Shown in pieces: positions 8,635 through 32,182 of a stretch of DNA of 36,858 nucleotides. Position numbers and translations under genes: made by a program. Location of the stretch: the NCBI GenBank assembly GCA_000934665.2, contig JYFJ02003887.1, positions 1 to 36,858 of the forward strand, given 5' to 3'. The stretch is from Catajapyx aquilonaris. Lineage: Eukaryota. Each line of letters begins with the position of its first letter. Positions within the stretch are counted from its first letter, which is position 1. The notes beneath the pieces are model-generated. The model was not told the origin of the DNA. It saw only the letters and a list, made by a program, of their open reading frames with translations, and made no database searches.

Positions 8635-11167
8635 ATGGCGGCTGCGTTGACGGCAGCGGGCGGTGGCACCGGCGTGTCCGCCTCCTCGCTGATGGGCAGG
8701 GGCATTGGAGGGGCAGGGTCGCCCGGGGGAGGGTCCGGGGCAGGGTGGTCCAAGTGGCAGATCGCGGCCGCCGTGTGTGTCCCGGTGGCAGTGGGCAGTC
8801 TGGGATACTGGTACTACAAGAAGGGACACAGGTGCCTCTTCCCAAAGGCAGACGGTGGGAAGCCAGAGGCTGGAGACGCGCCCTCGTTCGACGAAGGGAC
8901 GGACCAGGGGCGGAACCAGGGGGAGGAGGAGGAGGAGGAAGAACGGGAAGAAGAGGCACAGGTTTGGTCCTACACTAAAACGACTTAACCCGCACTAGAC
9001 CGACCTAACCTACACTAAACCTACCTAACCCGCACTAGACCGACCTAACCTACACTAAACCTACCTAACCCGCACTAGACCGACCTAACCTACACTAAAC
9101 CTACCTAACCCACACTAGACCGACCTAATCTACACTAAACCTACCGAACCCACACTTAACCGTTAACCCACACTTATTTATTGGCATGCGTTGGACATAC
9201 CGAATGAGTTACACCATGGTTTTTGTTGCAGGATCCGATCACTAGGGCGCAGAATGCAAAGAACAAAGGGAACAAGTACTTCAAGGGTGGGAAGTACGCG
9301 GCTGCCATCAAATGTTACGATAATGCAATCAACCTTTGTCCGAAAGATAACACGATGGATCTGTCCACTTTCTACCAGAACCGGGCTGCTGCGTATGAAC
9401 AGATGGTGAGTCTCGCTGTCGTCCAAGCGTGCCTGAAATTAATTTTCCTAATGTGCACAGGGCAAGTATGAGGAGGTGAAGGATGATTGCACCCAAGCCC
9501 TGGACCTCAACCCGAGGTACATGAAGGCTCTGTTCCGCCGCGCAAAGGCTTTAGAGCAACTACGTGAACTGTCTGGATCGCTGGAGGACATAACTGCAGT
9601 GTGCATCCTGGATGGGTTCCAGAACCAGGCCTACCTCATGATGGCGGACCGGGTGCTGAAGGACCTGGGTCGGTCCAAAGCCAAGGAGGAGCTGGCCAAG
9701 AAGGAGCCGGCTATGCCTGCGAGGCACTTTGTCCGCACCTACTTCTCCTCTTTCTCAACCGGGCCTCTGCGCATGGCAGCCCTGGAGGCACAAGGTGACG
9801 GTGCAGGCGAGGGGCTAACTGGTGGTCTAGCAGAGGCTAAGAGGGCACTGCGGCAGGAGAGGTATGAGGAAGTGGTACCATGCTGCACACGGGAAGTGGA
9901 GCAGGGTGGATCAGGCCTGGGGGAGGCATTGCTGCTGAGAGGCACATTCTACCTGCTGCGGGGAGAACATACCAAGGGTCTGAAGGACATGGAGAGCATC
10001 ATCGAGTCAGATAGTCCAGTCATGACTAATGAGGTGAGGGCCACGTATTAATTCACGGATATGTTTTTTCCTCAATTTGTGTCGATAGAACTGGCCCCAA
10101 ATGTCTCCTTACAGGGGCGCAAAGACAACATATGATGTCCGTCAATTAACATTTCTCTCTCGTAATCAGATTAAAGTGAATGCCTTGGTGAAGAGGGCAT
10201 CGCTGTATATCCAGTTGGAGGACCCCGAGCGATGCTTGGCGGACTTCAACCATGCAGCGGAGATGAGTCCGGATAATCCAGACATCTATCACCACAGGGG
10301 CCAGGTGTACCTCCTCCTAGATCAGCTGGACAAAGCCCATGAAGACCTGGAGACAGCGGCTAGGCTGAACCCAGACTTCAAGTTGGCCCAGGTCCAGAAG
10401 ATCTACACGAGCTACAGGCAAGCCTTGGCTGCCAGGGATGGCCCAGGGGTGTCCGCAGTGTGCGGGCAGTTTGAGAACTTCATAAAGGAGAACCCTAATT
10501 GCAGTGAGGGATACAGTCTTTATGCGCAGATGCAGACGGACCAGCAAAACTTTCAGGAAGCAGACAAGCTCTACCAGAAAGCCATTAAGACTGATCCTGG
10601 AAATGCAACGTTAATAGTGCACAGAGGTACGTGTGATTGGCATCGGTTATGTGCTGCGAACGAGACATTCCATCCGCAACGGATGGAAAAAATTAGCTAC
10701 ATTTTTCCTTATTACAATAACAATGCAGGCTTCCTTATCATCTTGCTGCATTTTGCAAAGTGATGTACGTATTTTTTACATTCTCTATTTATCTACTTGC
10801 CTACAGCCATGTTGAAACTTCAGATGATGCAAGATGTAGAGGAAGTGAAGAGCTTAGTCAACGAGGCCATCAAGGTGGATGACCGGTCGGAATTTGCCTA
10901 TGAGACTCTCGGTACAATCGAGGTGCAACAGTGAGTACCTTTAATCACTTCTGCAACACTTGTTGGTTTCATTTAGGCAAGTGATCTAATGGAATTCTTA
11001 ATCCCAGGGGCCACCTAAAGGAGGCTGTGCAGCTGTTTGAGAAGGCAATCCGACTGGCCAAGACCGAGGTGGAGATGGCTCACCTGCTTTCCTTGAGGGA
11101 TGCTGCAAAGGCGCAGATAAAGGTTGCGAAAAATCTGGATATCAAGACAATGGACGTTAACCAATGA
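8635..11167 (+). CDS. TOMM70: Mitochondrial import receptor Tom70 (TPR protein), 6 coding exons
   Basis: Exons 8635-8961, 9232-9405, 9461-10033, 10170-10626, 10807-10930, 11008-11167; an in-frame ATG also lies at 8623. N-terminal anchor KWQIAAAVCVPVAVGSLGYWYY, TPR clamp AKNKGNKYFKGGKY..AI.CY and STFYQNRAAAYEQ, PDIYHHRGQ, C-terminal FAYETLGTIEVQ..LAKTEVEMAHL. Confidence 0.96.
8987..9160 (+). repeat. 40-bp minisatellite in Tom70 intron 1 (about 4 copies)
   Basis: Unit aacccgcactagaccgacctaacctacactaaacctacct, itself built of two related 20-mers. Confidence 0.9.
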
Positions 11168-14040: not shown

Positions 14041-14284
14041 TTACTGCTGAATAAATTAACACGTTATCATGGCTTGTGGATGTCAAATATTGCGCACATT
14101 TTAAAATTAAATTAAATTAAACCATCTGAGAGTACAGTAATTAAAGTGCAATTTTTAAAAACTATAGCACTTATTTTGGCTGAGGCCTAAATAGACAACG
14201 CCATCACATTTTCATTGATTAAATAGCAGATCACATGACATTTACCATGAGTGTACATACCCTAACATTTTATTCATTTCATGC

Positions 14285-16063
14285 TTACCAGTCATGCCAG
14301 AACATCTTCTGTAGGACTGGTTGCCCCCCTTCTCCCATGGCCAGGCTCCTCCCAATGGCACCAGGTTGAGTCTGGCTCGATGTACAAACCTCCAGTCGAG
14401 TTGTAGTTGACCTGGCGGAGGTCCAGATGTTCTGGTGCGCATTGCTACGCAGGCGGAACTCTCCCTCGTTGGAGCCGTTCAGGAAAGCCAACATTTCTGC
14501 CTCACTGATGGCCTCCATGCTCAGGCGCCCCTCAACTGTAGAGCGAAGATCATCCTCAGCCAATTCCCTCACTCCAAATGGAGGGCGTGCACAACGTTGT
14601 TCGTAAAATTCCTGGTCCCAAGGCCTCTCTGAATATGCCTCAATGAAGGACTCCAACTTCTCCTTGGGAATATGGCACTTTTCACTCTCTTCATCCAGCA
14701 AAAGTCTAAAGGCTTTCCTGCGGTTGCGTCGGTAAAGCCGTTGAATGGCCCTTGGATGTCAATTGGGTTTTTGGTAGGGTCATGGTTGCCAGAAGATGGG
14801 GGGATGCGGGCAGTCTCCCTGGCGGTGGCATTTAACTGATCGAGCAGCTCTTCGAACAGGGCCCAAGCCTCTTCAGTCCTGCCCAAATTGCGTATTCGAG
14901 CCAGGCCGGGAGGTAATCATGTATCGGCGTCCGACCATCCCCTGACAGAAGCTCCTCCCCCATCGAGAGCTCCTCCATGACAGGGTCGCCCTCATGGTCA
15001 TGGTGATCAGAGGAATCATCATCGTCTAGGTCAGCATCACGAACATCATCATCATCATCATGCGAGTCAACACCACCATCATCCATGCACAAGACATCAC
15101 CACCAGCACCATCAGGAGGGTCAGCACCCCCTGCACCCACGTCCAAGACACCACCACCAGCAAAATCACCTAGGCCATCACCACAAGCACCAGCAGGAAG
15201 GTCAGTAGTATCAATGATCGCAGGTGTGAAAGCCGCCCTGTGGACTGGAGGAGGTAAAGAGCGACCACATCTGATAGGATGGGCACCACAGTATCAGGAA
15301 CATCAGCGATGACTTCACACTATGGCGTTGCACAGTCTGGTAAAGCAGGCACCGAGGTGGTGGTCGGGGTGAGCCTGAGCATTCTGGATCTACCCCGAAC
15401 AGGAGCATCACTGGCAGGACAGGCAGGCCCCCTGGTGGTCACGTCCGCCCCGTCTGCAACAGCAGGCCCCGAGGTGGTGGTATCCTCCGAGCTACCAGCC
15501 AACAGCGTAATGTCGTCTGCGAGGGCGAAGACATGGTGATCGCCCGCCTCACCTGGCTGGATCGCCCAGAGGACAGGGTCAATAGCCACATTGAAGAGTA
15601 TGCTGGACAGGGGGTCATCCTGCCGGATGCCACAGTCGGTTCAGATGGTGGAGGTAGGACCCTCAGCAGTCAGGATGGTGGTGGTGCTGCCCCGGTACAA
15701 ATCCATGGCGACTTCGGTGAGGGTGTCCCCCACTCCCGCCGCTCGCAGGGAAGCTTCGATTGCACCGTGAGGCACCGAAGTATAGGTTGCAGTGAGGTCC
15801 ATTCAACCAATGCACATGTCCTCCTTCCCGTCCAGCGCCCTGCCCATGGCCTCCTGGAGCCCAAAATTGTGCTCCAGGACACCATCGTAGGGGCGGAATC
15901 CTTTTTGGCCGCAGTGCAGGACCTGGTAGTTCTCCAGCCACGTCGACAGTCTGGCAGCGACGCAACCAGAGTATAGTTTGGCGATCGTCCGTAGGATGGA
16001 GATAGGCTGCCAGCTAGTTGACTGGGTCCACCGGGTCACCCTTCTTGTGGATGAGCACGGTGG
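14285..16063 (-). mobile_element. Utopia-like RLE non-LTR retrotransposon mosaic, block A (RT core piece, acidic linker, pre-RT piece, post-RT piece, DWRFVHRARL piece)
   Basis: Peptides TVLIHKKGDP, QKGFRPYDGVLEHNF, LADDITLLA, DGRTPIHDYLP, LYRRNRRKA, FLNGSNEGEF, DWRFVHRARLNLVPL. Frameshifted and not colinear. Confidence 0.85.
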
Positions 16064-16489: not shown

Positions 16490-16580
16490 GGCTCGCAGGG
16501 AACCCGCCATCTTGACCAGCGGTTGCCAGATTTTCTCTACTCCTGAGCGTCACGTATAGACCGATCCATCTGGCAACAGG
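16490..16580. promoter_or_regulatory. Diverged copy of the ATP5MG start/promoter module
   Basis: cgccatcttgaccagc..gttgccagattttctctactcc..gatc..ctggcaaca aligns with cgccattttgaccagc..gttgccagatttgctctactcc..gatc..ctggcaaca at 13047-13126. On the minus strand ATGGCGGGTTCCCTGC corresponds to ATGGCGAGTTCCGTGC. Confidence 0.6.
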
Positions 16581-16930
16581 GGCCAGGAGAGGGCCACTTG
16601 CTGCTCGAGTGAGACATGTTGGAACGTGTTCGAAAGAAGAAGCCACAGTCTCTCAGTCTCTCGCGGGCATGTTTGACGAACACTAATTCAATCACATCAT
16701 TCCCTCTGTGCGAATTGGAACGGGTACATTTTAATGGCCCTATTTTAGAGCAGCTTTTATAGTGAAGCGCCTGTGTCGCATGTGGGTGACGTCAAGCAGG
16801 TAGCCTTGAAGCCGGCGGGTGATGCTGCGGGCCCCATTGCTTGGCTGCTCCTGGACGGGGAAGGTGCACACGGGACAAGTAGTAGTGGCACCCGGAGGAC
16901 ATCAGCGTCATGTGTACCCGCGTACAGGTA

Positions 16931-18004
16931 CGTTGAGAGGTGTAGTACCTGCACATACTTGGCATATCATCGTGTTCTGTACTTTTCATGCATACATGCA
17001 ATCACTGGGTGCTTGTCCAGCAGTCAAATTGGGGTGGCAGCTGTTTAATGTTGCAATGCTCCTAATCGCACATATTTTAACGCAGGTGAGACCCAAGCAC
17101 CTTCCCCATGGACCAGAGGCAACTACACTGTATCACCAGCAACAGCAGCGAATGCAATCGAACTGGACCAAAATGCTGTTGCGTCATGTGCGACTGTGGA
17201 TGAAGCCGTCCTGCTGTCGTGACTTTGGTATCGTGAGTCAAATATGACACCATTAACCCATTTCCCTTCCCGGTGGCATCTCAACCTTGGCGTGGTGGGG
17301 GGGCTTGCGTTCTCCCGTGACCCCGAAGGGCTATGCTGGCGGTAGCTTAGTCTACTGGCAGGGTCACCCTAGCCGGACAGGTCTTTGGGGTAGGAGACAG
17401 ACGAAGAGAGATGCCACCCTCATTTCCCACACATTCCTTCCTACCTGCCTTCATGTCCCACCTTTTCTATTTCCTATATAACGGCCAGTTGTGGCTCTAT
17501 TATACTAAACCCTATTCGCCTTGAAGGGAGGTAGGCCAGTGAAGGCCACCCACCAAGTCTGCTCTGACGTGGTTGCATTCCCTGTAGAGGTGGAAATTAG
17601 AATGTGGTTTACCAAGTATCATTGCTTTATTATATAATCATTATAGGCCTACATTACATATAATTACGACCTGAAAAATGTTTATGGCTCTCACATCAGA
17701 AAAATGGGGCCGCTTAATTTTCCTCTTAACTTCGGCCCCCATCTAATTCTTTCATAACTGCATTTAATCTCGCAGTACTCTTGTGCATTATTGCATGTTT
17801 TTGACCAGAAAGTAATTTTGGCCAAATAAATACCTGTACTGGTCTTAACAACAAATGGCTCAGTTGCCCCATTTTAGTAGACCATGAGCATGGATAATTA
17901 ATAATTATATTATGCTCTTTTGAGAAAAGGTGTTGGACGCAGAGTAAATTCCAATGAAAAGTTATATTGCAGGCGAAGACCATCTGACTTTGATCTGTTG
18001 ATAT
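16931..18004 (+). repeat. Non-coding spacer unit, copy 1
   Basis: Highly similar by eye to 20330-21649, 26294-27512 and 30780-32182. Lacks the first ~200 bp shared by the other copies. Confidence 0.92.
17272..17418 (+). mobile_element. RTE-clade LINE 5'-UTR structured element (Bov-A/Expander-like); also at 20886-21033, 31340-31487, partial at 26755-26820
   Basis: accttggcgtggtggggggg-cttgcg...gctatgc...ggcagggtcacccta-gccggacaggtc...cagacgaagag follows the conserved RTE 5' motif as I recall it. Closed by an 11-bp stem ggtggcatctc/gagatgccacc. Confidence 0.7.
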
Positions 18005-18023
18005 TAAGCTGATAAGAACAGAT
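18000..18023 (-). ncRNA. U2 snRNA fragment (about nt 38-61), Utopia target-site 3' flank; not a gene
   Basis: Minus strand ATCTGTTCTTATCAGCTTAATATC, immediately after the AATAAA ending the element 3' UTR. Confidence 0.88.
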
Positions 18024-19445
18024 TTATTATAAATATCATTAGGTATACATTGGATGAAGCAGAAATGTCATAAGTTATGTCATGGTTGAGGCAAGACGTA
18101 GTGAAGGCAGAGAGTTCATAACCTGAAATGGAAGGTAAAAAACTTTCCCACTGGCTTTATTTTGACACTGATCCTGCATTAATATTGGCAGTCGCCAGAC
18201 AAGTGATCGCAATAAATGTCCCGAGACCAACGTATGACATCACTGACGCAAAGACGTCTAGACGTCCGTAGATAGCTCCTGGAACAGAGCCGCCTCATCA
18301 GTCTGTCGTTCATTGGGTCCCAGGATCCAAGAGCTCCAACCACCACCTCTTCAACCATCACCCTCCGGTATCTGGAGCCGAGCAGCAGGGCCAACGGTGC
18401 GTACTTGTCGATTTTGAGTTGCCGAGCCGCTTGCAAGGATTCAGGTCTGTTGTCAAATGGGGTGGTTATATCCACGATGATCGCAGTATCTACTCCTTGG
18501 GTCAGAAGCAGGTCAGGGCGCAGTGAGCAGCCAGGGAAGACCTGTTGGTTACATTTCGTAACAGTGAACTTCGCCGAAGCCGCTCGCTTGACCCTCTCCA
18601 CTACTGAGTCGTGTCTCTTTTGGTATGCAACCGAGTGTCGGGCCATGCAATGATCAAGGACGACATGAGGCAACGTTTCCTTTGGTTCTGGGCAACGCCT
18701 GCAGGCCGTAGAGGACGTGGTGTCCCATGGTCGGCATCCATGTAGCGGGACTAACCTCAACCTCGCCCGGTGTGCAAACCTCCAATCCGCAAATCTAGTG
18801 TAGTGGCCAGTGGATAGGAAGTGCGAAGAGCTAGGGTGTTTGGCAACACACTCTAGCACCTTCCCTTGGTGGGGCAAGCCGTGCAGCCGCGCATCCCTTA
18901 CCCGCCACAAGGTGTCACGAAGCAGTCGTACCACTCCCTTCCTCTGTATTGGGTGGACGGTGGTGTCGTTCTTGGTCAGGGATGGGAGACTGTCGTTGAA
19001 TGACCAGGTGATACCAAGTCTTGTGGCCGCCTTCCTGCCCTCTGTCCATAGGTTCTGGCAGCGGTTGGTGTGGCGCCTGAATTCACTGTCATTGGTGCCG
19101 GAGAGGAACCGTTGCACATCTACCACACCAGCCACCCTCCGTAAGCGAGCGCTGACTGTTGAATTTAATTGGAGTTCAGCGAGCACCGCTACATCTACGT
19201 CAGGGGAGGCGAGGAGTTTGAAGCAACTGTCCAGTCGATATAAGTCAGATTCCTCCGCTGCCAGAGGGAACCCACAGGCACCCGCTTTCCTGTTGCCATT
19301 GAGGTAATCACTTGTAGCACGGGTAGGAAGGTACAACGTCTTCAAGATGTTGTGTTTGAAGGCCTTATCCAGCCTCTCCCATGCAAACTTCAGGAAGGTG
19401 CCCGTCCTCATTGGGAACACAAGGGCTGAGTAAACAAAGGTCTTG
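18024..19445 (-). mobile_element. Utopia-like element 3' third: post-RT region, CCHC knuckle, restriction-like endonuclease, stop and 3' UTR
   Basis: Open 413-aa frame (19420-18179): FADWRFAHRARL, CRRC..ETLPHV..HC, RHDSVV, RPDLLL..IIVDITTPFDN, KIDKY, VVGALGSW. Ends in AATAAA plus U2 flank. Confidence 0.92.
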
Positions 19446-19469
19446 ATCCGTTCAAGTGGGTGATATATG

Positions 19470-20329
19470 CTTCATGTGACCAAGAGATAGTAACATCTGA
19501 CACACCGTTTTTGAAACAGTCTAAGGTAGGACCTGCTACACATCCTCTTCATCACCTTGTTGTTCGCAGGGTCCCAAGAGCCCAAGGACCCTATGATGAT
19601 GGCCTCGACTGTCACCTGGCGATAACAGGTCTTTAGTTGTTCAGCCAGGTCAGCATACTTGTCCTCCAATTTGCTCGCCTCTGCAAATGCCGTCAGTCAG
19701 TTGTCAAACGGAATCGTGAAGTCTATAATGATGGCAGTGTCGTTGCTGACCAGCACCAGGTCAGGGCGTTGTGGGCACTCCCTCAGCACCTTCTGATTTT
19801 CCCCGAGGATGGAGTACTTCGTCTTCACCCCCTCCCCCACATGCCTCGCAACTGCATTATGTCTTTTTTGGTAAAATGCAGCATGACACATGCAGTGGTT
19901 CAGCACATGAGGGAGGGTTTCCACTGGTTCTGGGCATCTCCGGCACTTCTGGCGTTGGTCTCTCTCCCAGGGTCTAGCACCACCCAACAGGACCATATTC
20001 AGACGGGCCCGATGTACAAAGCACCAGTTTGCAAAAGTTGTGTATTGCCCATCTGACATAAGTGGCTCCAGGCTGCTGCTTTCCCCACACACTCCATGAC
20101 CTTCCCCTGGTTCGGCTTGTCCAGCAGTTGTTGATGGAGCTGCTTCTGGGTGGCTGCCACTGGACGCCCGCTTCCCTCTTAGCCGGGGGTTGCTCGCAGC
20201 CGTATGATCAGTCTCCGTAGGACTGCTCGTAGTCGTAGGTCCGGTACTCGTCATAGGGTTGCTCGTAGCCATAAGGTATGTCCCCATAGGACTGATCATA
20301 AGTCTGGCACTCGTCGCAGGGCCTCCTGA
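19470..20329 (-). mobile_element. Second Utopia-like RLE/CCHC fragment fused to a low-complexity N-terminal piece
   Basis: CRRCPEPVETLPHVLNHC, RPDLVLV..IIIDFTIPFDN, DKYADL, IIIGSLGSWDP. Clearly diverged from the 18-19 kb copy. Confidence 0.88.
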
Positions 20330-21649
20330 GACCTCCTCAATTGCTCCTACAGGTTGTGTAAAAATGTATTATTGTTGTCTTACTAATGAGCATACTCGCA
20401 CTGATCTTGCAATAATATTTGTAATTATCAATATGAATTCATCCTAACATGAAATATTTTATGTGAATGGCAACCTGCCATACAATGCTTCTGGCGAATT
20501 AATTTCCAAATACCATCATGTCGCCATACCGATCCGTTGAAATGTGTACCTGCACATATTTGGTAGAGACTGGCATATCATTGTGTTGTGTACTCATACA
20601 TGCATGCAATCACTGTATGCGTGTCCAGTCAAATTGGGGTGGCAGCTTAATTTAATATTGCAATGCCCCTAATCGCACATATTTTAACGCAGGTTATCCT
20701 GTGAGACCCAAGCATCTTCTCCATGGACCAGAGGCAACTACTGTATTGCCAGCAGCAGCGAATGCAATCAAACTGGACCAAAATGCTGTTGCATCATGTG
20801 CGACTGAGTGGAAGCCGTCCTGCTGTCGTGACTTTGGTATCGTGAGTCAAATATGACACCCTCTATTAACCCATTTCCCCCCCCAGGTGGCATCTCAACC
20901 TTGGCGTGGTGGGGGGGGCTTGCGTTCTCCCGTGACCCCGAAGAGTTATGCCGGCGGTAGCTTAGTCTACTGGCAGGGTCACCCTAGCCGGACCGGTCTT
21001 TGGGGTAGGAGACAGACGAAGAGAGATGCCACCCTCATTTCCCACATATTCCTTCCTACCTGCCTTCATGTCCCACCTTTTGTATTTTCTATATAACGGC
21101 CATTTGTGGCTCTATTATACTAAACCCTATTCGCCTTGAAGGGAGGTAGGCCAGTGAAGGCCACCCACCAAGTCTGCTCTGACGTGGTTGCATTCCCTGT
21201 AGAGGTGGAAATTAGAATGAGGTTTACCAAGTATCATTGCTTTATTATATAATCATTATAGGCCTACATTTCGTATGATTACGACCTGAAAAATGTATAT
21301 GGCTCTCACATCAGAAAAATGGGCCGATTAATTTTCCACGTAACTTCGGCCCCCATCTAATTCTTTCATAACTGCATTTAATCTCGCAGTACTCTTGTGC
21401 ATTATTGCATGTTTTTGACCAGAAAGTAATTTTGGCCAAATAAATACCTGTACTGGTCTTAACAACAAGTGGCTCAGTTGCCCCATTTTAGTAGACCATG
21501 AGTATGGATAATTAATAATCATATTATGATCTTTTGAGAAAAGGTGTTGGACGCAGAGTAAATTCCAATGAAAAGTTATATTGCAGGAGAAGACCATTGG
21601 ACTTTGATCTGTTGATATGAAATGCTTAACCCTAGACAAATGTCAATCC
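20330..21649 (+). repeat. Non-coding spacer unit, copy 2
   Basis: Starts acctcctcaattgctcctacagg, ends agacaaatgtcaatcc. Confidence 0.95.
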
Positions 21650-24600
21650 GGGGGGATAGGAGGGAGCGAGTAGGTAGTAAAAGATGGAACAACCGATGAG
21701 GTTAGAAGGGAGGGAACCAGCACCGACCCTGCCCTGGCAAAAACGGGACTTACCAGGTCGACTGCTGGGGGGAGGAAAGGGGAGGGGGCAATAAAAGCAG
21801 GACCAGCCTGTGGGAATTGGGGTAACGGACCACATAGGTTAAAATGAGGACCAGCCTCATGGAGGGGGGGTGTGGGGTGGGGGACAGGATTAAAATCGGT
21901 TAAAAGCTCGCCTCCTTCTCCCACCCGGTCCAGCGTCGCCTGCTGGCCAATGGCCATGCCTAGTCATTTATGCTTCTTTCGCTTGGATGGGGGGCTAATA
22001 ACTCCCACCTCACCCTCCACTTCGCAACCAGACTGCGGGGGTGGGGAACGCCTTCTCATATCTGGCTTCCGGCGGGTGCATCTTCTCTCAGGAGATCCGT
22101 TCTTTTCACGGCAACTGCTCCTCCACATGCCACCGAAGATGGTTCCGGATGCCTATCTTAGTATGATGCATTTTGCCACATTCTGCGCAAGTGAATTTCC
22201 CCAAGGTAATATCCCCGGGTGCTATCTGTTCAGGCTTCTCAGGACATTGCTCGATGTGGTAGGATGGCCGCAGTGTCAGTTCCATCCCACCCCACCTGCA
22301 CAGTACCTCCTCGATGGGCTCCAGTTCATGACCCCTCCGCAGGTGTCGGATCAGGGACTGCTTCACGTACGTCCACACGTCCCCTTTGTAGACATGATTA
22401 CATCCCTCAACAACACACCGAACCTCCAGGGGCATGGGGAACCAGATGGTCAGCTTACCCTCCCGGAGCTCAGGTGGCTGCAGGGCAGTGTTCACCTCAG
22501 CCTCTCCTACCAGTGGGGTAGGCATCCCAGCACCACTTGGCTCAGCTGGTCCCTTTGGGGAGCACGCCAGCATGACCCCCCGCAGGTTCTCCAGAGACTC
22601 CCTTCGTGCCTGCTGGACTGCCTCCGCCGCCCCCCTAGCCGCTTCCGCTGTGTACTGTGCGGCTTCCGCTGCTTCCTCAGTTTCTTTCACCAGCTGCTGT
22701 GCCCTTTGCAGCTGCTCCTCCATGGTTGTTTGAAGTGAGGAGGAGGATGGTGGTGATGGCTGGTTAGGGGTATGAGGCATAGAAGCATTGTTTGAGGAGG
22801 AGGAGGGAGTGGGTGGGGCACTAGAGGCCCGCTTACTTCTCGTATCCGCAGGCCCCGGCTCGTACCCGTAAGGCTGCTGTTCGCACCCATAGGACTGCTC
22901 ATGATCATAGCGTTGCCACTCGTAGCCATAACTGTCTCTCTCAGCCATAGAGCCATCGCTCGTGGCCGTAGTTGTCCCCCTCGTAGCCATAGAGCTGCCG
23001 CTGCTCGTAGCTGTAGTTCTTTCGCTCGAAGTCTTAAGGCCATTTCACAAAAAAATGTCGCGCGGCAAACGGCGCGACTTGCGGCATATTTTTTATTTAT
23101 ATTTATTATTGCCAACAATTGGCAACAATAAATATAAATAAAAAATTTGCCGCACGTCGCGCCGTTTGCCGCGCGACATTTTTGGGGGGAAATGGCCTTT
23201 AGAGCCGGTGCTCGTAGCCATAGAGCTGCTGGTGCTCGTAGCTGTAGTCTTAGAGCCGGTGCTCGTAGCCGTATCAGAGCTGCCTGATAATCATAACATT
23301 GCTGCTCGTATCCTTAACAGGATTGTCATGTTCGTAGCAGAGCTGCTCGCAGCCTTAGCTGGGCTGCTCATAGTCCTAGTGTTGCCGCTCGTAGCCACAG
23401 TTTTCCCCCTCGCAGCCAGTGAAGGGGCATTGTACATCACCGGACAGGCCATGGCATCGGCCATGGCGTTAAAAAGGAAGGAACCAGCACCGACCCTGCC
23501 CTACTAAAAGCGGGACTTACCTGTAGGTCGAATGCTGGGGGGAGAAAGAAGGAGGGGGGNGAGGGGGGGGGGGATAAAAGCAGGACCAGCCTGTGGGAAT
23601 TGGGGTATCGGATCACATTGAGGACCAGCCTGTGAGGGTTGGGTAATTGGGTTAAAATGAGGACCAGCCTCAGGAAGAGGGGGTGTGGGGTGGGGGAAAG
23701 GACTAAACTCTGTTAAAAGCTCTCCTTCTCCCTCCCGGCCTGGCGTAATCTGCTGGCCAACGGCCACGCCTAGTCACTTAGGCCTCCTCTTCTTAGATGG
23801 GGGACCAATAACTCCCACGTCGTCTCGCCCATCATCATCACGTGGCCTCAGGGGCGGGGTCTCCCCGTCGGCCAAAGCAGCAGTACTGGGGGCAGACCCG
23901 CATTCTGTCTCAGGTGCTCGCTGACATGCCAACGAAGGTGGTTGCGGAGGGCACTTTTATTGTGAAAGTCCTCTCCACACTCGGCGCAGATGAATTCCCC
24001 CTTCTTCACCTGCCCCATTGTTCACTCCTCAGGTGGTAGGAGGGCCTCAGCTTGAGGTCCTTCTCACACCACCTGCAGCGGATCTCAACTTGAATAGTTT
24101 TTGGGACAGCGCTATGCACACTTTCCAGGTGCTGCATAACAGACTGTTTAAGTGCCGTCCAGGAGTGACACTTGAATGTACCGGAGCAGTCTTCCCGGAC
24201 ACAAGCGACCACTGGAGGCATGGGAAACCATGTGATTAATGTGTCCCCCTTCATTTCTGGTGGCCAGAGGACAGCTTCCTCTCCACTCCCTGACGTCACT
24301 GGCTCTGGTGTCTCTGCATCACTTGGCCCGGCTGGTTCCTTTGGGGAGCACGCCAGCATGACCCCCCGCAGGTTCTCTAATGACTCTCTCCATGCCTGTT
24401 GGGCCGCTTCCGCCGCCCCCCCTAGCTGCTTCTGCTGCATACTGTGCAGCTTCCTCTGCTATCTCCGCCTCCTCAGCCAGTTGCTGCGCTTTTTGCAGCT
24501 GTTCCTCCATTGTGGTATATAATGGGAAGGGGAACAATGACGATGGCTGACTGGGGGTCTTGTTTGAGGAGGAAGGAGTGGGTGGGGCACTGGAGGCCCG

Positions 24601-25626
24601 CATCCTTCCGGCACCTGTAGACCTGTGGCTCGTATTCATAGGACTGTTTGCATCCATATGGCTGCTGCTCGTACCCATAGTGCTGCTCGTGGCGGCACTC
24701 GTAGCCGTATTATCTTTGCTGGCAGTAACTAGCGTGTCATTCGGCCTAGTCAACATACGGCTGCTAGCAAACCTATCAACCCTTCTGGACCCAACCTTTG
24801 AAGGTCCCCCCCCCCCCNCCCAGCACCGCTTCCTCCTTCCATCGCTGGGCAAGCACCTGGGCCCAGGGTGGCACTACCGGCGCTCGTAGCCGGAGGCCTG
24901 CTGAAAGGAATGTTAGGGGGAGGTACCTGGTTCCAGTCCTTGGCCACTGTCCCCTTCTTTGTGGCCAGGGGTCTTCTCAAGTCGTCTGGCTTCTGGCGGG
25001 CACATCTTCTCTCAGGAGCTCCGTTCTTTTCACGCAACTGCTCCTCCACATGCCACTGAAGATGGTTCCGGATGCCTATCTTAGTGTGATGCATTTCTCC
25101 ACATTCTGCGCAAGTGAATTTCTCCAAGGTAATATCCCCGGGTGCTATCTGTTCAGGCTTCTCAGGACATTGCTCGATGTGGTAGGATGGCCGCAGTTTC
25201 AGTTCCATCCCACACCACCTGCACAGTACCTCCTCGATGGGCTCCAGTTCATGACCCCTCCACAGGTGTGGGGTCAGGGACTGCTTCACGTACGTCCACA
25301 CGTCCCCTTTGTAGACATGATTACATCCCTCAACGACACACCGAACCTCCAGGGGCATGGGGAACCAAATGGTCAGCTTACCCTCCCGGAGCTCAGGTGG
25401 CCGCAGGCCAGTGTTCACCTCAGCCTCTCCTGTCAGTGGGATAGCCGAGGCGGCCGCGGCGGCTCGTGGCACTCGCTTCATGGTTCACTTGTCTTAGTAT
25501 CTGGGGGTACACCCCCTATGTCGGCCCCCCGGCCAGAGAATCAAGGTGCAGCACTGTTCAACAATTATTTTGTTTTATCGCTTAAAGTGTTTTGCCTGTT
25601 TCGGGGATTCGCGCGCTAGGCATGAG
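21650..25626 (-). mobile_element. Three Utopia-like N-terminal fragments (C2H2 zinc fingers, Pro-rich and Ser/Thr low-complexity regions) plus a probable 5' UTR
   Basis: CVVEGC..HLRRGH / CRWC..SYH / CAECG..RNHLRWH fingers at ~22120-22430 and ~25050-25360, with a diverged version at ~23930-24230. The same sequence at 29640-30620 is contiguous with RT-proximal coding sequence. Confidence 0.8.
23037..23198. mobile_element. 162-bp fold-back MITE with TTA target-site duplication (PIF/Harbinger type)
   Basis: aggccatttc...gaaatggcct, near-palindromic over its whole length, flanked by tta (23034-23036, 23199-23201). Removing it restores gtcttagagccggtg, a motif repeated at ~23247. Confidence 0.9.
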
Positions 25627-25647
25627 ATTAAGCTGATAAGAACAGAT
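25627..25647 (-). ncRNA. Second U2 snRNA target-site fragment
   Basis: Minus strand ATCTGTTCTTATCAGCTTAAT, preceded by AATAAATGATA. Confidence 0.85.
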
Positions 25648-26293
25648 TATCATTTATTGATAGCAAGGCGATCATATATTCCTTCCTCCCGCTGGTCAAG
25701 GGTTCGGCCAATGAGTTCATTCAGTATGAAATTGTGTTCAAGGACCCCGTCGTATGGTCGGAACCCGTTCTGTCCTTTGTGTAGAACCTGGTGCTTCTCC
25801 AACCAGGACGAGAGCCTTCTGGCAAGGCACCCAAGAACAGCATTGCAATGGTTTGCTGGATGGAGATAGGTCGCCAGTTGGCTGGATCGGCCTGGTCACC
25901 CTTCTTGTAAATTAGGACTGTTGTAGACGATCGCCAGGCGTCCGGGACACGGCGAAGCTGCAGGCAGATGTTAAAGATGGAGACGCCTCCTCGCCTCCAT
26001 GCCCCACGTCCTCCTCCGTCTCCTCTCTGGCTCCGGGGGGCCCGGCTGCAACAACTGCTCGGCGGCTTGTCCAGCAGTTGTTGATGGAGCTGCTTCTGGG
26101 TGGCTGCCACTGGACGCCCGCCACTGGACGCCCGCTTCCCTCTTAGCCGGGGGTTGCTCGCAGCCGTATGATCAGTCTCCGTAGGACTGCTCGTAGTCGT
26201 AGGTCCGGTACTCGTCATAGGGTTGCTCGTAGCCATAAGGTCTGTCCCCATAGGACTGATCATAAGTCTGGCACTCGTCGTAGGGCCTCCTGA
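25648..26293 (-). mobile_element. Utopia-like mosaic (low-complexity piece, post-RT piece, RT piece, about 35-nt 3' tail)
   Basis: IFNICLQLRRVPDAWRSSTTVLIYKKGDQADPANWRPIS. 26063-26293 duplicates 20113-20329. Confidence 0.82.
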
Positions 26294-27512
26294 GACCTCC
26301 TCAATTGCTCCTACAGGTTGTGTAAAAATGTATTATTGTTGTCTTACTAATGAGCATACTCGCACTGATCTTGCAATAATATTTGTAATTATCAATATGA
26401 ATTCATCCTAACATGAAATATTTTATGTGAATGGCAACCTGCCATACAATGCTTCTGGCTAATTAATGTCCTAATACCATCATGTCGCCATACCGATCCG
26501 TTGAAATGTGTACCTGCACATATTTGGTGGAGACTGGCATATCATTGTGTTCTGTACTCATACATGCATGCAATCACTGTGTGCGTGTCCAGTCAAATTG
26601 GGGTGGCAGCTTAATTTAATATTGCAATGCCCCTAATCGCACATATTTTAACGCAGGTTATCCTGTGAGACCCAAGCATCTTCTCCATGGACCAGAGGCA
26701 ACTACTGTATGGCCAGCAACAGCAGCGAATGCAATCGAACTGGACCAAAATGCTTACTGGCAGGGTCACCCTAGCCGGACAGGTCTTTGGGGTAGGAGAC
26801 AGACGAAGAGAGATGCCACCCTCATTTCCCACACATTCCTTCCTACCTGCCTTCATGTCCCACCTTTTGTATTTTCCATATAACGGCCAGTTGTGGCTCT
26901 ATTATACTAAACCCTATTCGCCTTGAAGGGAGGGAGGCCAGTGAAGGCCACCCACCAAGTCTGCTCTGACGTGGTTGCATTCCCTGTAGAGGTGGAAATT
27001 AGAATGTGGTTTACCAAGTATCATTGCTTTATTATATAATCATTATAGGCCTACATTACGTATAATTACGATCTGAAAATGTACATGGCTCTCACATCAG
27101 AAAAATGGGGCCGCTTAATTTTCCACGTAACTTGGGCCCCCATCTAATTCTTTCATAACTGCATTTAATCTCGCAGTACTCTTGTGCATTATTGCATGTT
27201 TTTGACCAGAAAGTAATTTTGGCCAAATAAATACCTGTACTGGTCTTAACAACAAATGGCTCAGTTGCCCCATTTGAGTAGACCATGAGTATGGATAATT
27301 AATTATTATATTATGATCTTAGGAGAAAAGGTGTTGGATGCAGAGTAAATTCCGATGAAAAGTTATATTGCCGGAGAAGATCATCGGACTTTGATCTGTT
27401 GATATGAAATGCTTAGCCCTAGACAAATGTCAATCCAGTGGTTATACTTGTCTGTTAAATACGATTTTTTTTTGTATGTGTGTGTGGGGTGGGGGGGGGA
27501 TATGTGGCGAGT
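26294..27512 (+). repeat. Non-coding spacer unit, copy 3 (internal deletion removes the 5' half of the RTE-like structure)
   Basis: ggaccaaaatgct is joined directly to tactggcagggtcacc at ~26755. Confidence 0.95.
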
Positions 27513-30779: not shown

Positions 30780-32182
30780 GCCCTCCTCAATTGCTCCTAC
30801 AGGTTGTGTAAAAATGTATTATTGTTGTCTTACTGATGAGCATACTCGCACTGATCTTGCCATAATATTTGCAATTATCAATATGAATTCATCGTAACAT
30901 GAAATATTTTATGTGAATGGCAACCTGCCATACAATGCTTCTGGCGAATTAATGTCCAAATACCATCATGTCGCCATACCGATCCGTTGAAGTGCGTACC
31001 TGCACATATTTGGTGGAGACTGGCATATCATAGTATTCTGTACTCATACATGCATGCAATCACTGTGTGCGTGTCCAGTCAAATTGGGGTGGCAGCTTAA
31101 TTTAATATTGCAATGCCCCTAATCGCGCACATTTTAACGCAGGTTATCCTGTGAGACCAAAGCATCTTCTCCATGGACCAGAGGCAACTACTGTATGGCC
31201 AGCAACAGCAGCGAATGCAATCGAACTGGACCAAAATGCTGTTGCATTATGTGGGACTGCGTGGAAGCCGTCCTGCTGTCGTGACTTTGGTATCGTGAGT
31301 CAAATATGACACCCTCTCTTATTAACCCATTTCCCCCCCGGTGGCATCTCAACCTTGGCGTGGTGGGGGGGGCTTGCGTTCTCCGGTGACCCCGAAGAGC
31401 TATGCCGGCGGTAGCTTAGTCTACTGGCAGGGTCACCCTAGCCGGACAGGTCTTTGGGGTAGGAGACAGACGAAGAGAGATGCCACCCTCATTTCCCACG
31501 TATTCCTTCCTACCTGCCTTCATGTCCCACCTTTTCTATTTCCTATATAACGGCCAGTTGTGGCTCTATTATACTAAACCCTATTCGCCTTGAAGGGAGG
31601 TAGGCCAGTGAAGGCCACCCACCAAGTCTGCTCTGACGTGGTTGCATTCCCTGTAGAGGTGGAAATTAGAATGTGGTTTACCAAGTATCATTGCTTTATT
31701 ATATAATCATTATAGGCCTACATTACGTATAATTACGACCTGAAAAATGTATATGGCTCTTACATCAGGAAAATGGGACCGATTAATTTTCCACGTAACT
31801 TGGGCCCCCATCTAATTCTTTCATAACTGCATTTAATCTCGCAGTACTCTTGTGCATTATTGCATGTTTTTGACCAGAAAGTAATTTTGGCCAAATAAAT
31901 ACCTGTACTGGTCTTAACAGCAAATGGCTCAGTTGCCCCGTTTTAGTAGACCATGAGTATGGATAATTAATTATTATATTATGATCTTAGGAGAAAAGGT
32001 GTTGGACGCAGAGTAAATTCCGATGAAAAGTTATATTGCAGGAGCAGACCATTGGACTTTGATCTGTTGATATGAAATGCTTAGCCCTAGACAAATGTCA
32101 ATCCAGTGGTTATACTTGTCTGTTAAATACGATTTTTTTTTTAGTGTGTGTGTGGGGGGGAGGGGGGGGATATGTGGCGAGT
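30780..32182 (+). repeat. Non-coding spacer unit, copy 4
   Basis: Longest copy; same start as copies 2 and 3 and same end (gatatgtggcgag) as copy 3. Confidence 0.95.

What the first reader, a model, noticed from the sequence alone, without database searches (positions are those of the whole stretch)
18000..18180. Utopia 3' end carried here with only about 23 nt of its U2 target, with no U2 gene present
Seen on the minus strand: RLE stop (18179), about 155-nt 3' UTR, AATAAA, then TCTGTTCTTATCAGCTTAATATC, then spacer unit. The joint uses a GATAT microhomology: other spacer copies read gttgatatgaaatg, here gttgatattaagctg. The U2 match begins just after the GUAGUA branch-point-pairing sequence, which as I recall is the Utopia insertion point. 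Inference: the fragment was copied from an element resident in U2 elsewhere (read-through RNA or DNA) rather than inserted here by normal target-primed reverse transcription.
Basis: partly seen in the sequence, partly recalled or inferred. Interest (0 to 1): 0.72.

Follow-up and report, generated by a model that had tools for sequence, protein, structure and literature searches.

The report
Utopia element end with U2 stub
The tail of a 'Utopia' jumping gene, which normally lands inside U2 spliceosomal RNA genes, is followed here by only 23 bases of U2 because it sits at a head-to-tail joint inside a pile-up of such elements; the feature is real, but short U2 stubs like it can already be seen in published data.

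Summary
On the minus strand an intact 430-codon frame (thumb, CCHC finger, restriction-like endonuclease) stops at 18181-18179. A 156-nt 3' UTR follows, ending in AATAAA, then 23 bases identical to U2 nt 39-61, then a 1.1-kb repeat. No other U2 sequence is detectable anywhere in the window.

A second copy of the 23-mer (one mismatch) lies at 25646-25624, behind a different Utopia 3' end, and stops at the same U2 position. The 'spacer' is probably not host spacer. It runs co-linearly into a Utopia N-terminal coding region, starts at three different 5' points, and holds a 98-nt segment that is 78% identical to a metagenome contig, where that segment abuts a Utopia 3' end in a U2 gene.

All 25 tblastn matches of a full-length relative lie on one strand and come from several diverged lineages. 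My best reading (0.45) is a head-to-tail joint in a pile-up at a used-up U2 target, with U2 39-61 as a separator the size of a target-site duplication.

Kojima and Jurka 2015 already show 20-23-nt U2 stubs, tandem copies and a 20-bp duplication. This is a new member of a known kind, of modest interest.

The parts
18179..19471 (-). Copy A: 5'-truncated Utopia-type open frame (about aa 905-1330 of full-length relatives: thumb, CCHC finger, PD-(D/E)xK endonuclease), with no stop or frameshift
   Evidence: 52% identity to P0003 over aa 910-1330; C-terminal match to R2 protein structures, E 6.6e-07. The CCHC motif (CRRCPEPKETLPHVVLDHC) and the RPDLLL...VDIT...KIDKY motif were read directly from the translation.
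18023..18178 (-). 3' UTR of copy A, 156 nt, ending in AATAAA (18028->18023)
   Evidence: Unique in the window. No unusual fold (z 0.10). The sea-urchin families in S1 Fig also end in AATAAA directly on U2 nt 39.
18000..18022 (-). U2 snRNA nt 39-61, 23 of 23 identical to published arthropod U2 flanks. The last 5 nt (ATATC, 18004->18000) are shared with the repeat.
16960..18004 (-). Repeat ('spacer') copy 1. It lacks at least 31 nt at its 5' end compared with copy 2, and about 130 nt or more compared with copies 3 and 4.
17280..17376 (-). Segment X inside the repeat: a conserved, strongly paired stretch of about 98 nt, also present in the other repeat copies (for example 31348-31445)
   Evidence: (77.6% identity over 98 nt to L088 nt 1-95, E 6.7e-15).
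19441..20116 (-). Neighbouring endonuclease fragment of another Utopia lineage (52% aa identity to copy A). It breaks off about 4 codons before its stop, where copy A begins.
20571..21649 (-). Repeat copy 2. It starts at GGATTGAC, behind a C-run and a 3'-truncated zinc-finger fragment, and runs on into the Tyr/Gly-rich region D3 (to 20113).
26535..27436 (-). Repeat copy 3. The sequence it shares with copy 4 continues upstream to 27569.
31021..32104 (-). Repeat copy 4 (shared sequence continues to 32239). It is followed co-linearly by D3, the coiled-coil region, the zinc fingers and RT (30626->28578).
25624..25646 (-). Second U2 nt 39-61 stub (AATCTC in place of AATATC)
25647..25981 (-). RT fragment (aa 608-696 of P0003) joined to a short Utopia-style 3' end (...CAATAAATGATAA) that abuts the second stub
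   Evidence: The AATAAA plus 0-16 nt pattern of 3' ends is seen in S1 Fig.
24750..25623 (-). Sequence after the second stub: a 142-nt leader unique in the window, ATG at 25481, then the N-terminal zinc-finger frame of another Utopia copy
   Evidence: Relative P0005 likewise starts almost directly with the zinc-finger region.

Best explanation
The stub marks a head-to-tail joint between two Utopia-type units inside a pile-up that grew at what was once a U2 target.

Inferred order of events:
1. A unit carrying the long 5' leader (the 'spacer') was laid down in U2. Its 5'-truncated cDNA end was joined to the upstream U2 DNA at nt 61 through the shared ATATC. This means the second-strand break lies about 23 bp downstream of the first nick, and it leaves U2 1-61 in front of the unit.
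2. Copy A was then inserted by ordinary target-primed reverse transcription at the canonical nick before nt 39 of that remnant. This leaves A, then U2(39-61), then the next unit.
3. Joining of A's 5' end removed upstream DNA. That is why A abuts another lineage's endonuclease frame, which lacks its last 4 codons and its 3' UTR.

Shown: the anatomy of both joints, the single orientation, the lineage diversity, and the absence of other U2 sequence. Inferred: the order of events, the position of the second-strand break, and that the repeat belongs to a Utopia transcript.
For: 1. There are two stubs, behind two different Utopia 3' ends and in front of two different sequences, and both end at U2 nt 61.
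2. The second stub is followed by what looks like a true 5' end: a 142-nt leader, an ATG and the zinc-finger frame. Relative P0005 has the same layout.
3. The repeat behaves like the 5' part of a retroelement. It has three different 5' start points with a common continuation. It runs co-linearly into a Tyr/Gly-rich region that resembles the N-terminal frame of other copies (E 3e-4 in a tiny database). Its segment X is 77.6% identical to L088, where X sits directly 5' of the last ~90 nt of a Utopia 3' UTR inserted in a full U2 (39->end).
4. All 25 of 25 tblastn matches of P0003 lie on the minus strand across 14.3-36.7 kb. The lineages differ by 41-48% at the protein level, so these were many independent arrivals at one directional target.
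5. Precedent in Kojima and Jurka 2015: reptile families make 20-bp target duplications, Nasonia copies occur in tandem (20 of 94 3' junctions in N. vitripennis are followed by Utopia), and 5' junctions are variable.
6. A fetched locus shows the same architecture with a longer separator. L105 reads Utopia, then U2 39 to about 88, then a 55-nt Utopia tail, then full U2.
7. The stub ends at nt 58-61 in several families whatever the distance from their AATAAA: Nasonia 23 nt, Pelodiscus 23 nt, aphid 20 nt in 3 copies. That fits a limit set on the U2 DNA.
Against: - The paper reports no target duplication for arthropod families, and copy A's nearest proteins are from arachnids and other arthropods.
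- It is not proven that the first ~630 nt of the repeat belong to a Utopia transcript. Only 1 of 4 repeat copies is preceded by a stub.
- No U2 5' half (nt 1-38) is found anywhere. A's own 5' flank is not U2.
- The similarity of region D3 to the N-terminal frame is low-complexity and weak.
- L088's homology begins at the first base of its contig, so where X sits within an element is unknown.
- Other stacks of fragments in the window (for example 36695->32189) do not end in a 3' UTR plus stub.
Confidence: 0.45

Rival explanations
1. The stub was carried on the RNA. Utopia transcripts made from copies resident in U2 genes run about 20-23 nt into U2. That tail normally pairs with the nicked target to prime reverse transcription. 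Here either a break inside the repeat primed on the tail through ATATC (an off-target insertion), or the reverse transcriptase, on reaching the end of one template, jumped onto the U2-tailed 3' end of a second RNA. Either route gives A, then the U2 tail, then the next unit.
For: - The 18 U2 bases upstream of ATATC are absent from the three other repeat copies, and the break lies inside otherwise continuous repeat sequence with 5 nt of shared bases.
- Both stubs end at the same base, as a defined RNA end would give.
- Families reported to make no target duplication (arthropods) still show 20-23-nt stubs followed by unrelated DNA: Nasonia 1 copy, aphid Utopia-2_APi 3 copies.
- Partial stubs also occur in metagenome loci: L042 and L067 have 22 nt, L032 and L078 have 18 nt.
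- AATAAA sits 0-6 nt before both stubs, so cleavage 23-29 nt downstream is in the usual range. That range is established knowledge of polyadenylation and was not tested here.
- End-to-end template jumping of R2-type reverse transcriptase is recalled from the literature. I read no paper on it here.
Against: - There is no poly(A) between stub and flank at either site.
- The stub end tracks the U2 coordinate (nt 58-61) rather than the distance from AATAAA. Pelodiscus has AATAAA plus 9 nt plus 23 nt, and Nasonia has no AATAAA.
- An off-target landing would have had to fall, in the same orientation, inside a Utopia pile-up and, at site 2, exactly at another copy's apparent 5' end.
- A's upstream flank is not the missing part of the repeat.
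Confidence: 0.3
2. This was an ordinary insertion into a complete U2 gene, followed later by a deletion. Repair between the ATATC of U2 nt 57-61 and an ATATC further downstream removed U2 nt 62-190 and whatever lay between it and the repeat.
For: - The 5-nt direct match at the joint is what microhomology-mediated deletion leaves.
- The region is full of deletions and rearranged fragments. Examples are the internally deleted element at 15293->14263 and a form in public-run contigs that joins 18025 to 18183 and so lacks the whole 3' UTR.
- U2 copies with internal deletions occur elsewhere (L029).
Against: - The second stub ends at the same U2 base with a different downstream partner. Two independent random deletions would rarely share an end point.
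- The same end point recurs in a wasp and a turtle.
- No trace of U2 nt 62-190 or of a U2 5' half is left anywhere in 26 kb.
Confidence: 0.15
3. The joint is an assembly artefact: a false join between a Utopia copy in a U2 gene and a repeat copy, made through shared short words.
For: The region is highly repetitive. The repeat has several times the contig depth of copy A.
Against: - A 401-nt contig built independently from public reads covers 17944-18344 with 0 differences in run X1. Similar contigs with up to 6 other letters (plus a 3-nt gap in X3) appear in X2 and X3, and a longer one (17952-18601; 11 other letters, 6 gap letters) in X4.
- Only 5 nt are shared at the joint, too few to mislead an assembler.
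- The runs are probably the assembly's own sample, so this is not fully independent.
Confidence: 0.03

Closest known systems
Utopia, U2 snRNA gene-targeting non-LTR retrotransposons of the NeSL clade (Kojima and Jurka 2015, PMC4640811). I read the abstract, Results parts 1-2 and supplement S1 parts 2 and 8, plus searched passages.
   Same: - Restriction-like endonuclease class with a CCHC finger.
- The 3' end (AATAAA) is joined exactly to U2 nt 39.
- Nearest proteins come from host groups listed in the paper (ticks, spiders, turtles, ants, aphids, a dragonfly).
- Tandem copies occur.
- Copies followed by only 20-23 nt of U2 are already visible in the paper's S1 Fig and in the Table 2 footnote.
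   Different: - No complete U2 gene or U2 5' half is near these copies.
- Two stubs with the same end point lie inside a multi-lineage pile-up.
- One partner carries a leader of more than 1 kb.
- The paper does not discuss what sets the stub length. It attributes non-U2 flanks to weakened target specificity.
R2 elements of 28S rRNA genes
   Same: Same enzyme class, with a weak C-terminal match to solved R2 proteins. The following points are recalled and were not read here: R2 has precise 3' junctions but variable 5' junctions with target deletions, downstream target sequence on the RNA helps priming, and short internally deleted derivatives keep only the 5' and 3' ends.
   Different: The target is U2, not 28S. 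No Myb domain was detected in the N-terminal frames. Protein similarity to R2 is far lower (E 6.6e-07) than to the Utopia-host group (E down to 6e-156).
Keno, an APE-type non-LTR element at the same U2 site (as described in PMC4640811)
   Same: The 3' flanking U2 sequence is identical, starting at nt 39.
   Different: Keno encodes an apurinic/apyrimidinic-like endonuclease. Copy A encodes a CCHC finger and a PD-(D/E)xK endonuclease.
YURE elements in U2-derived satellite repeats of Ciona (mentioned in PMC4640811)
   Same: These relatives of Utopia sit in repeated DNA that holds only U2-derived pieces rather than functional U2 genes.
   Different: Here the repeat shows no U2 similarity beyond the stub. 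No YURE sequence was available for comparison.

Membership tests
Utopia (U2-targeting NeSL-clade non-LTR retrotransposon) | 3' end of the element joined to U2 snRNA gene sequence starting at nt 39 | tested here: met
   Two junctions, 18023/18022 and 25647/25646, matched against the U2 flanks in S1 Fig and the statement 'started at nucleotide 39'.
Utopia (U2-targeting NeSL-clade non-LTR retrotransposon) | One protein with N-terminal zinc fingers, RT, then a C-terminal zinc finger and a restriction-like endonuclease | tested here: met
   Copy A holds the thumb, CCHC and PD-(D/E)xK parts. RT (PF00078) and zinc-finger parts are present in neighbouring fragments. No single copy in the window is complete.
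Utopia (U2-targeting NeSL-clade non-LTR retrotransposon) | RT groups with named Utopia families in a phylogeny | tested here: inconclusive
   No named Utopia sequence was available and no tree was built. Indirect evidence only: the best protein hits (41-52% identity) are from Ixodes, spiders, Pelodiscus, Camponotus, Solenopsis, aphids and Ladona, which are genera or groups in the paper's Table 1. A termite-type locus with a true U2 junction (L042) matches A's endonuclease region.
Utopia (U2-targeting NeSL-clade non-LTR retrotransposon) | No Myb domain (the criterion used to separate Utopia from R2 in PMC13188248; passages read) | tested here: met
   Pfam found no family at all in the N-terminal frames 22106-23044, 24750-25484 and 24006-24458. 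This is a weak test, because the zinc fingers were not detected either.
Utopia (U2-targeting NeSL-clade non-LTR retrotransposon) | Resident inside a U2 gene, with U2 on both sides (seen for 10 of 65 families in the paper) | tested here: not met
   No U2 5' half and no U2 nt 62-190 anywhere. The paper itself accepts families and copies without full U2 flanks.
Keno (APE-type U2-targeting element) | Apurinic/apyrimidinic-like endonuclease | tested here: not met
   Copy A ends in a CCHC finger plus a PD-(D/E)xK endonuclease.
HDV-like self-cleaving ribozyme (candidate: segment X) | Nested double pseudoknot with strands in the order P1, P2, P3, P3', P1', P2' | tested here: inconclusive
   The three helices can be drawn: 93.4% of cells pair, against 17-49% when partners are slid. 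There is only 1 compensatory pair, and 129 of 500 shuffles do as well. There is only one diverged homologue (L088).
HDV-like self-cleaving ribozyme (candidate: segment X) | Match to curated ribozyme models. The recalled core features are a G.U pair at the cleavage site and a C-rich L3. | tested here: not met
   No Rfam match at E up to 10 over 16500-27500, which holds three copies of X. By eye, P1 starts with C-G and L3 reads ACUAAG. The hallmark features come from recall, not from a call.

The most novel reading that the evidence does not exclude
Utopia builds self-renewing landing pads. Each insertion leaves the 23 bp of U2 nt 39-61 next to an element end, and that stub, with the resident 3' end in front of it, is enough to be nicked and used again. 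Head-to-tail arrays of several lineages can then grow and persist for long periods with no U2 gene present. The constant end point at nt 58-61 in wasp, aphid, turtle and this genome would then report a conserved second-strand cut about 20-23 bp downstream of the first nick.
Probability: 0.2. Interest if true: 0.6.

Novelty: new member of a known kind. Interest (0 to 1): 0.3.

Why it matters
Utopia depends on a low-copy, essential gene family, and how it persists there is an open point raised by its describers. A locus where several diverged lineages have stacked up behind 23-bp U2 stubs suggests that the element can keep a private target alive outside functional U2 genes.

The fixed stub length is a measurable handle on the stagger between the two strand cuts, or on the 3' end of the RNA template. 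Neither has been measured for this clade as far as my two literature searches show.

For genome annotation, the lesson is that a short U2 match next to AATAAA marks a Utopia junction, not a U2 pseudogene.

Tried and rejected
- **Whole-genome search for U2:** no genome is held for this window, so the species' own U2 genes and U2-resident copies could not be examined.
- **Earlier findings of the scan:** nothing on this genome or sequence. Two unrelated notes were returned.
- **RNA evidence:** no RNA holder was listed, so transcript ends could not be looked at.
- **U2 5' half:** a 21-nt motif from the paper's S1 Fig gave 0 matches at up to 3 mismatches. GGCTAAG...AGATCAAAGT at the start of repeat copies 3 and 4 looks like U2 nt 19-33 split by 14 nt. 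I could not test it further and treat it as chance. A by-eye resemblance between the 36 nt before segment X and U2 nt 1-38 needs 6 mismatches in the first 16 nt, so I dropped it.
- **Host taxon:** the TOM70-like exon finds nothing above 53% identity, so the taxon is unresolved.
- **Region D3 against N-terminal regions:** nucleotide BLAST and tblastx found only D3 copies. Protein-level similarity is weak.
- **Sequences around the stubs:** the leader after the second stub, the tail before it and A's 3' UTR have no other copy in the window. I could not draw a ribozyme-like fold for the leader by eye.
- **3' UTR plus stub:** it folds no better than shuffles.
- **tRNA:** none in the repeat.
- **Stub-length tally:** an automated tally over the 106 metagenome matches was too noisy, because allowed mismatches extend chance matches. 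I rely instead on reading the table. About half the matches run on into full U2. Some 40 are chance matches or 14-nt-only cases. A handful are true partial stubs.
- **Contig depth:** this cannot be turned into copy number, so I draw no conclusion on how many copies of the joint exist.
Full report
**What is there.** I read the minus strand. A stop-free frame runs from 19471 to a TAA at 18181-18179 (430 codons stop-to-stop). A 156-nt 3' UTR follows, and its last six bases are AATAAA (18028->18023).

The frame aligns over its whole length with the C-terminal third of 750-2150-residue proteins (125 with E up to 1e-5, best 6e-156, identity 41-52%). With tblastn it maps to residues 910-1330 of the 1335-residue P0003. 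It carries a CCHC finger and a PD-(D/E)xK endonuclease motif, which I read from the translation. Its only solved relatives are R2 proteins, and the match is weak (E 6.6e-07). It is therefore the 5'-truncated 3' part of a restriction-like-endonuclease non-LTR retrotransposon, with no stop or frameshift.

**Is the 23-mer U2?** Rfam cannot score so short a piece. The supplement of Kojima and Jurka 2015 prints dozens of Utopia-U2 junctions. The U2 flank in ants, bees, a tick and a spider reads TCTGTTCTTATCAGCTTAATATCTGATAC..., directly after ...GTGTAGTA. The text says the flank begins at nt 39. The window's 23 bases are identical to nt 39-61 of that sequence. With up to 3 mismatches the 23-mer occurs twice in the window and never in 100 shuffles. 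Sea-urchin families also end in AATAAA directly on nt 39.

- Rfam finds no U2 at gathering score in the whole window.
- It finds none at E up to 10 in 11000-36858 or in 401-nt stretches around each stub.
- I took U2 nt 62 onward from ten fetched loci that hold real U2 behind a Utopia end and aligned them locally to the 250 nt after the stub. Nine of 10 did not exceed shuffles. The tenth (L103, score 14, 7 of 200) scores the same on repeat copy 2, which has no stub.
- A 21-nt motif of the U2 5' half has no match at up to 3 mismatches.

**The joint.** I aligned the four repeat copies: 16960-18004, 20571-21649, 26535-27436 and 31021-32104 on the + strand. The other three read ...GGATTGACATTTGTCTAGGG(C/T)TAAGCATTTC ATATC AACAG... 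This copy reads ...CAGCTTA ATATC AACAG.... ATATC is therefore common to U2 nt 57-61 and to the repeat. The 31 nt or more of repeat that should precede it are not found next to copy A (one search finds that 36-mer only in copies 2-4).

Contigs built from four public runs of one sample include a 401-nt piece covering 17944-18344 with no difference. They also include pieces that leave the window's sequence at 18004 into GAAATGCTTAACCC, which is the stub-less repeat form. The joint is real, although the runs are probably the assembly's own sample.

1. There is a second stub at 25646->25624, with one mismatch (AATCTC).
   - In front of it lies a different Utopia end: an RT fragment (residues 608-696) joined to ...CAATAAATGATAA. 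This has the AATAAA-plus-a-few-bases form of published Utopia 3' ends.
   - Behind it lies a 142-nt leader unique in the window, an ATG at 25481 and the N-terminal zinc-finger frame of another copy.
   - Relative P0005 also begins almost directly with that region.
   - Two different elements are thus each followed by U2 up to exactly nt 61, and then by two different sequences.

2. The 'spacer' is probably not host spacer.
   - It is on the same strand as everything else.
   - In three full copies it runs straight into a Tyr/Gly-rich stretch, D3 (a fourth stretch, cut by the window end, shows only D3). D3 resembles the N-terminal frame of other copies, but weakly: 19 of 41 residues, E 3e-4 in a 1001-letter database, with no nucleotide-level match.
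   - In copy 4 the order continues through the coiled-coil region and zinc fingers into RT.
   - The repeat has three different 5' start points (copy 1; copy 2; copies 3 and 4) with a common continuation. That is the usual look of 5'-truncated retro-copies.
   - A 98-nt segment of it (X; 17376->17280 in copy 1) is 77.6% identical (E 6.7e-15) to the first 95 nt of metagenome locus L088. There X sits directly in front of the last ~90 nt of a termite-type Utopia 3' UTR, which is inserted in a full U2 (39->end). X therefore keeps company with Utopia in a second organism.

3. The whole right half of the window is a pile-up.
   - All 25 of 25 tblastn matches of P0003 lie on the minus strand between 14302 and 36695.
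   - They come from diverged lineages. Copy A is 52% identical to the endonuclease fragment next to it, and two RT fragments are 59% identical.
   - The repeat copies, by contrast, are 93-96% alike.
   - Copy A begins about four codons before the end of that neighbouring endonuclease frame, whose stop and 3' UTR are missing.

**What is already known.** I read the abstract, Results parts 1-2, supplement S1 parts 2 and 8 and searched passages of Kojima and Jurka 2015.
- 3' junctions are precise and 5' junctions vary.
- Reptile families make 20-bp target duplications, and arthropod families make none.
- Nasonia copies occur in tandem (20 of 94 3' junctions in N. vitripennis are followed by Utopia).
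- One P. sojae copy is followed by a 21-nt U2 fragment.
- In S1 Fig I found further short stubs followed by non-U2 sequence:
  - a Nasonia copy with 23 nt, the same end point as here;
  - a Pelodiscus copy with 23 nt, and others with 21-23 nt;
  - three copies of aphid Utopia-2_APi with 20 nt;
  - many alligator copies with 4-12 nt.
- The authors read the non-U2 flanks as weakened specificity and do not discuss stub length.

From the table:
- about half run on into full U2;
- roughly 40 are chance matches or 14-nt-only cases;
- a few are true partial stubs: L042 and L067 with 22 nt, L032 and L078 with 18 nt;
- L029 is a U2 with an internal deletion;
- L105 reads Utopia, then U2 39 to about 88, then a 55-nt Utopia tail, then full U2. 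This is a tandem with a U2 separator.

**Explanations.**

*Best reading (0.45): a head-to-tail joint in a pile-up at a used-up U2 target.* The downstream unit's 5' junction lies at U2 nt 61, joined through ATATC at site 1. That position is what a second-strand break about 23 bp downstream of the first nick would give. Copy A was then laid down at the canonical nick before nt 39, and the joining of its 5' end deleted the resident copy's last ~170 bp. This accounts for several observations:
- the shared end point of the two stubs;
- the apparent 5' end behind stub 2;
- the single orientation and the many lineages;
- the absence of a U2 gene.

Weak points:
- The paper reports no duplication in arthropod families, and A's nearest relatives are arthropod.
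- It is not proven that the first ~630 nt of the repeat belong to the element.
- Only one of four repeat copies has a stub.
- No U2 5' half survives.

The tail was used either at an off-target break or as the acceptor in a template jump. It explains stubs in families without a duplication and the fixed end.
- Against it, there is no poly(A) at either joint.
- The end tracks the U2 coordinate rather than the distance from AATAAA.
- An off-target hit inside a same-strand pile-up would be a coincidence.

*Other rivals.* A later microhomology deletion from a full U2 (0.15) fits the ATATC, but not two identical end points. An assembly artefact is unlikely (0.03).

**Verdict.** The 'spacer' premise and the 'not inserted here' inference do not follow.

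This is a new member of a known kind. The one point of wider interest is the recurring end at U2 nt 58-61 across phyla, together with the possibility that such stubs serve as reusable targets. That point needs genome-wide junction counts, transcript ends or nicking assays, none of which were possible here. No genome is held for this window, and no RNA run was listed.

Noticed in passing
window 17280-17376 (also about 20895-20992 and 31348-31445, and in repeat copy 3); L088:1-95: Segment X, a 98-nt stretch of the repeat, is 77.6% identical to a metagenome contig, where it lies just 5' of a truncated Utopia 3' UTR in a U2 gene. It can be drawn as a nested double pseudoknot in the HDV-ribozyme strand order, with one compensatory pair. 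Rfam does not match it, and the recalled core features are not evident.
   Followed up: partly
window 18025/18183 (contigs of runs X1-X3): A contig form joins 18025 directly to 18183 and skips 157 nt. This would be a copy in which the end of the frame runs straight into AAA plus the U2 stub with no 3' UTR (CAATA|AAA, which re-creates both a stop and AATAAA). Depth is 12-16, with only 26 nt on the short side.
   Followed up: no
window 25480-25530: About 100 nt after the second stub, the leader reads GGGGGTGTACCCCCAGATACTAAGAC. This resembles U2 stem-loop IIa plus the following bases as seen in L041 (local score 16, reached by 1 of 200 shuffles, one of 30 comparisons). It could be chance or a scrap of U2.
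   Followed up: partly
window 23051-23183: A near-perfect AT-rich palindrome of about 130 nt flanked by GC-rich arms. It gives sub-threshold matches to several plant microRNA precursor models on both strands (best 52 bits against a gathering score of 130). It is most likely just a hairpin-forming inverted repeat inside a Utopia N-terminal region.
   Followed up: no
window 14263-15293: A Utopia copy with several internal deletions: the linker before RT, then residues 502-559, 1003-1063 and 1138-1190 follow each other directly. This is the downstream end of the pile-up. No 3' UTR or U2 follows it.
   Followed up: partly
window 8949-9168: A tandem array of 20-nt units that alternate between two forms (CCTACACTAAACCTACCTAA and CCCGCACTAGACCGACCTAA), in a GC-rich stretch upstream of the TPR exons.
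   Followed up: no
window 9452-10763: Two plus-strand exon-like frames with tetratricopeptide repeats. The best relatives are mitochondrial import receptor TOM70-like proteins, at only 45-53% identity, so the host taxon stays unresolved.
   Followed up: partly
L005, L015, L023, L035, L065, L075, L080, L081; L055: Eight contigs, at least some with ids like those of other coral-associated hits, share AAAATAAAAAGAAACCACT, then 14 nt of the U2 stub, then one common downstream sequence. This is possibly a Utopia-like repeat with a very short stub. L055 has CAATAAATGATAAGA before the stub bases, nearly the same tail as window site 2.
   Followed up: no
L105: One contig shows a Utopia 3' end, U2 nt 39 to about 88, a 55-nt Utopia 3' tail, and then U2 from nt 39 on. 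This is a natural tandem with a 50-nt U2 separator.
   Followed up: partly
window 27437-27569 and 32105-32239: In front of repeat copies 3 and 4 lie a short RT scrap (AQKGF...), a C-run, (CA)n and A9. Copy 2 is also preceded by a C-run. The origin of these runs at the repeat's 5' borders is unexplained.
   Followed up: no
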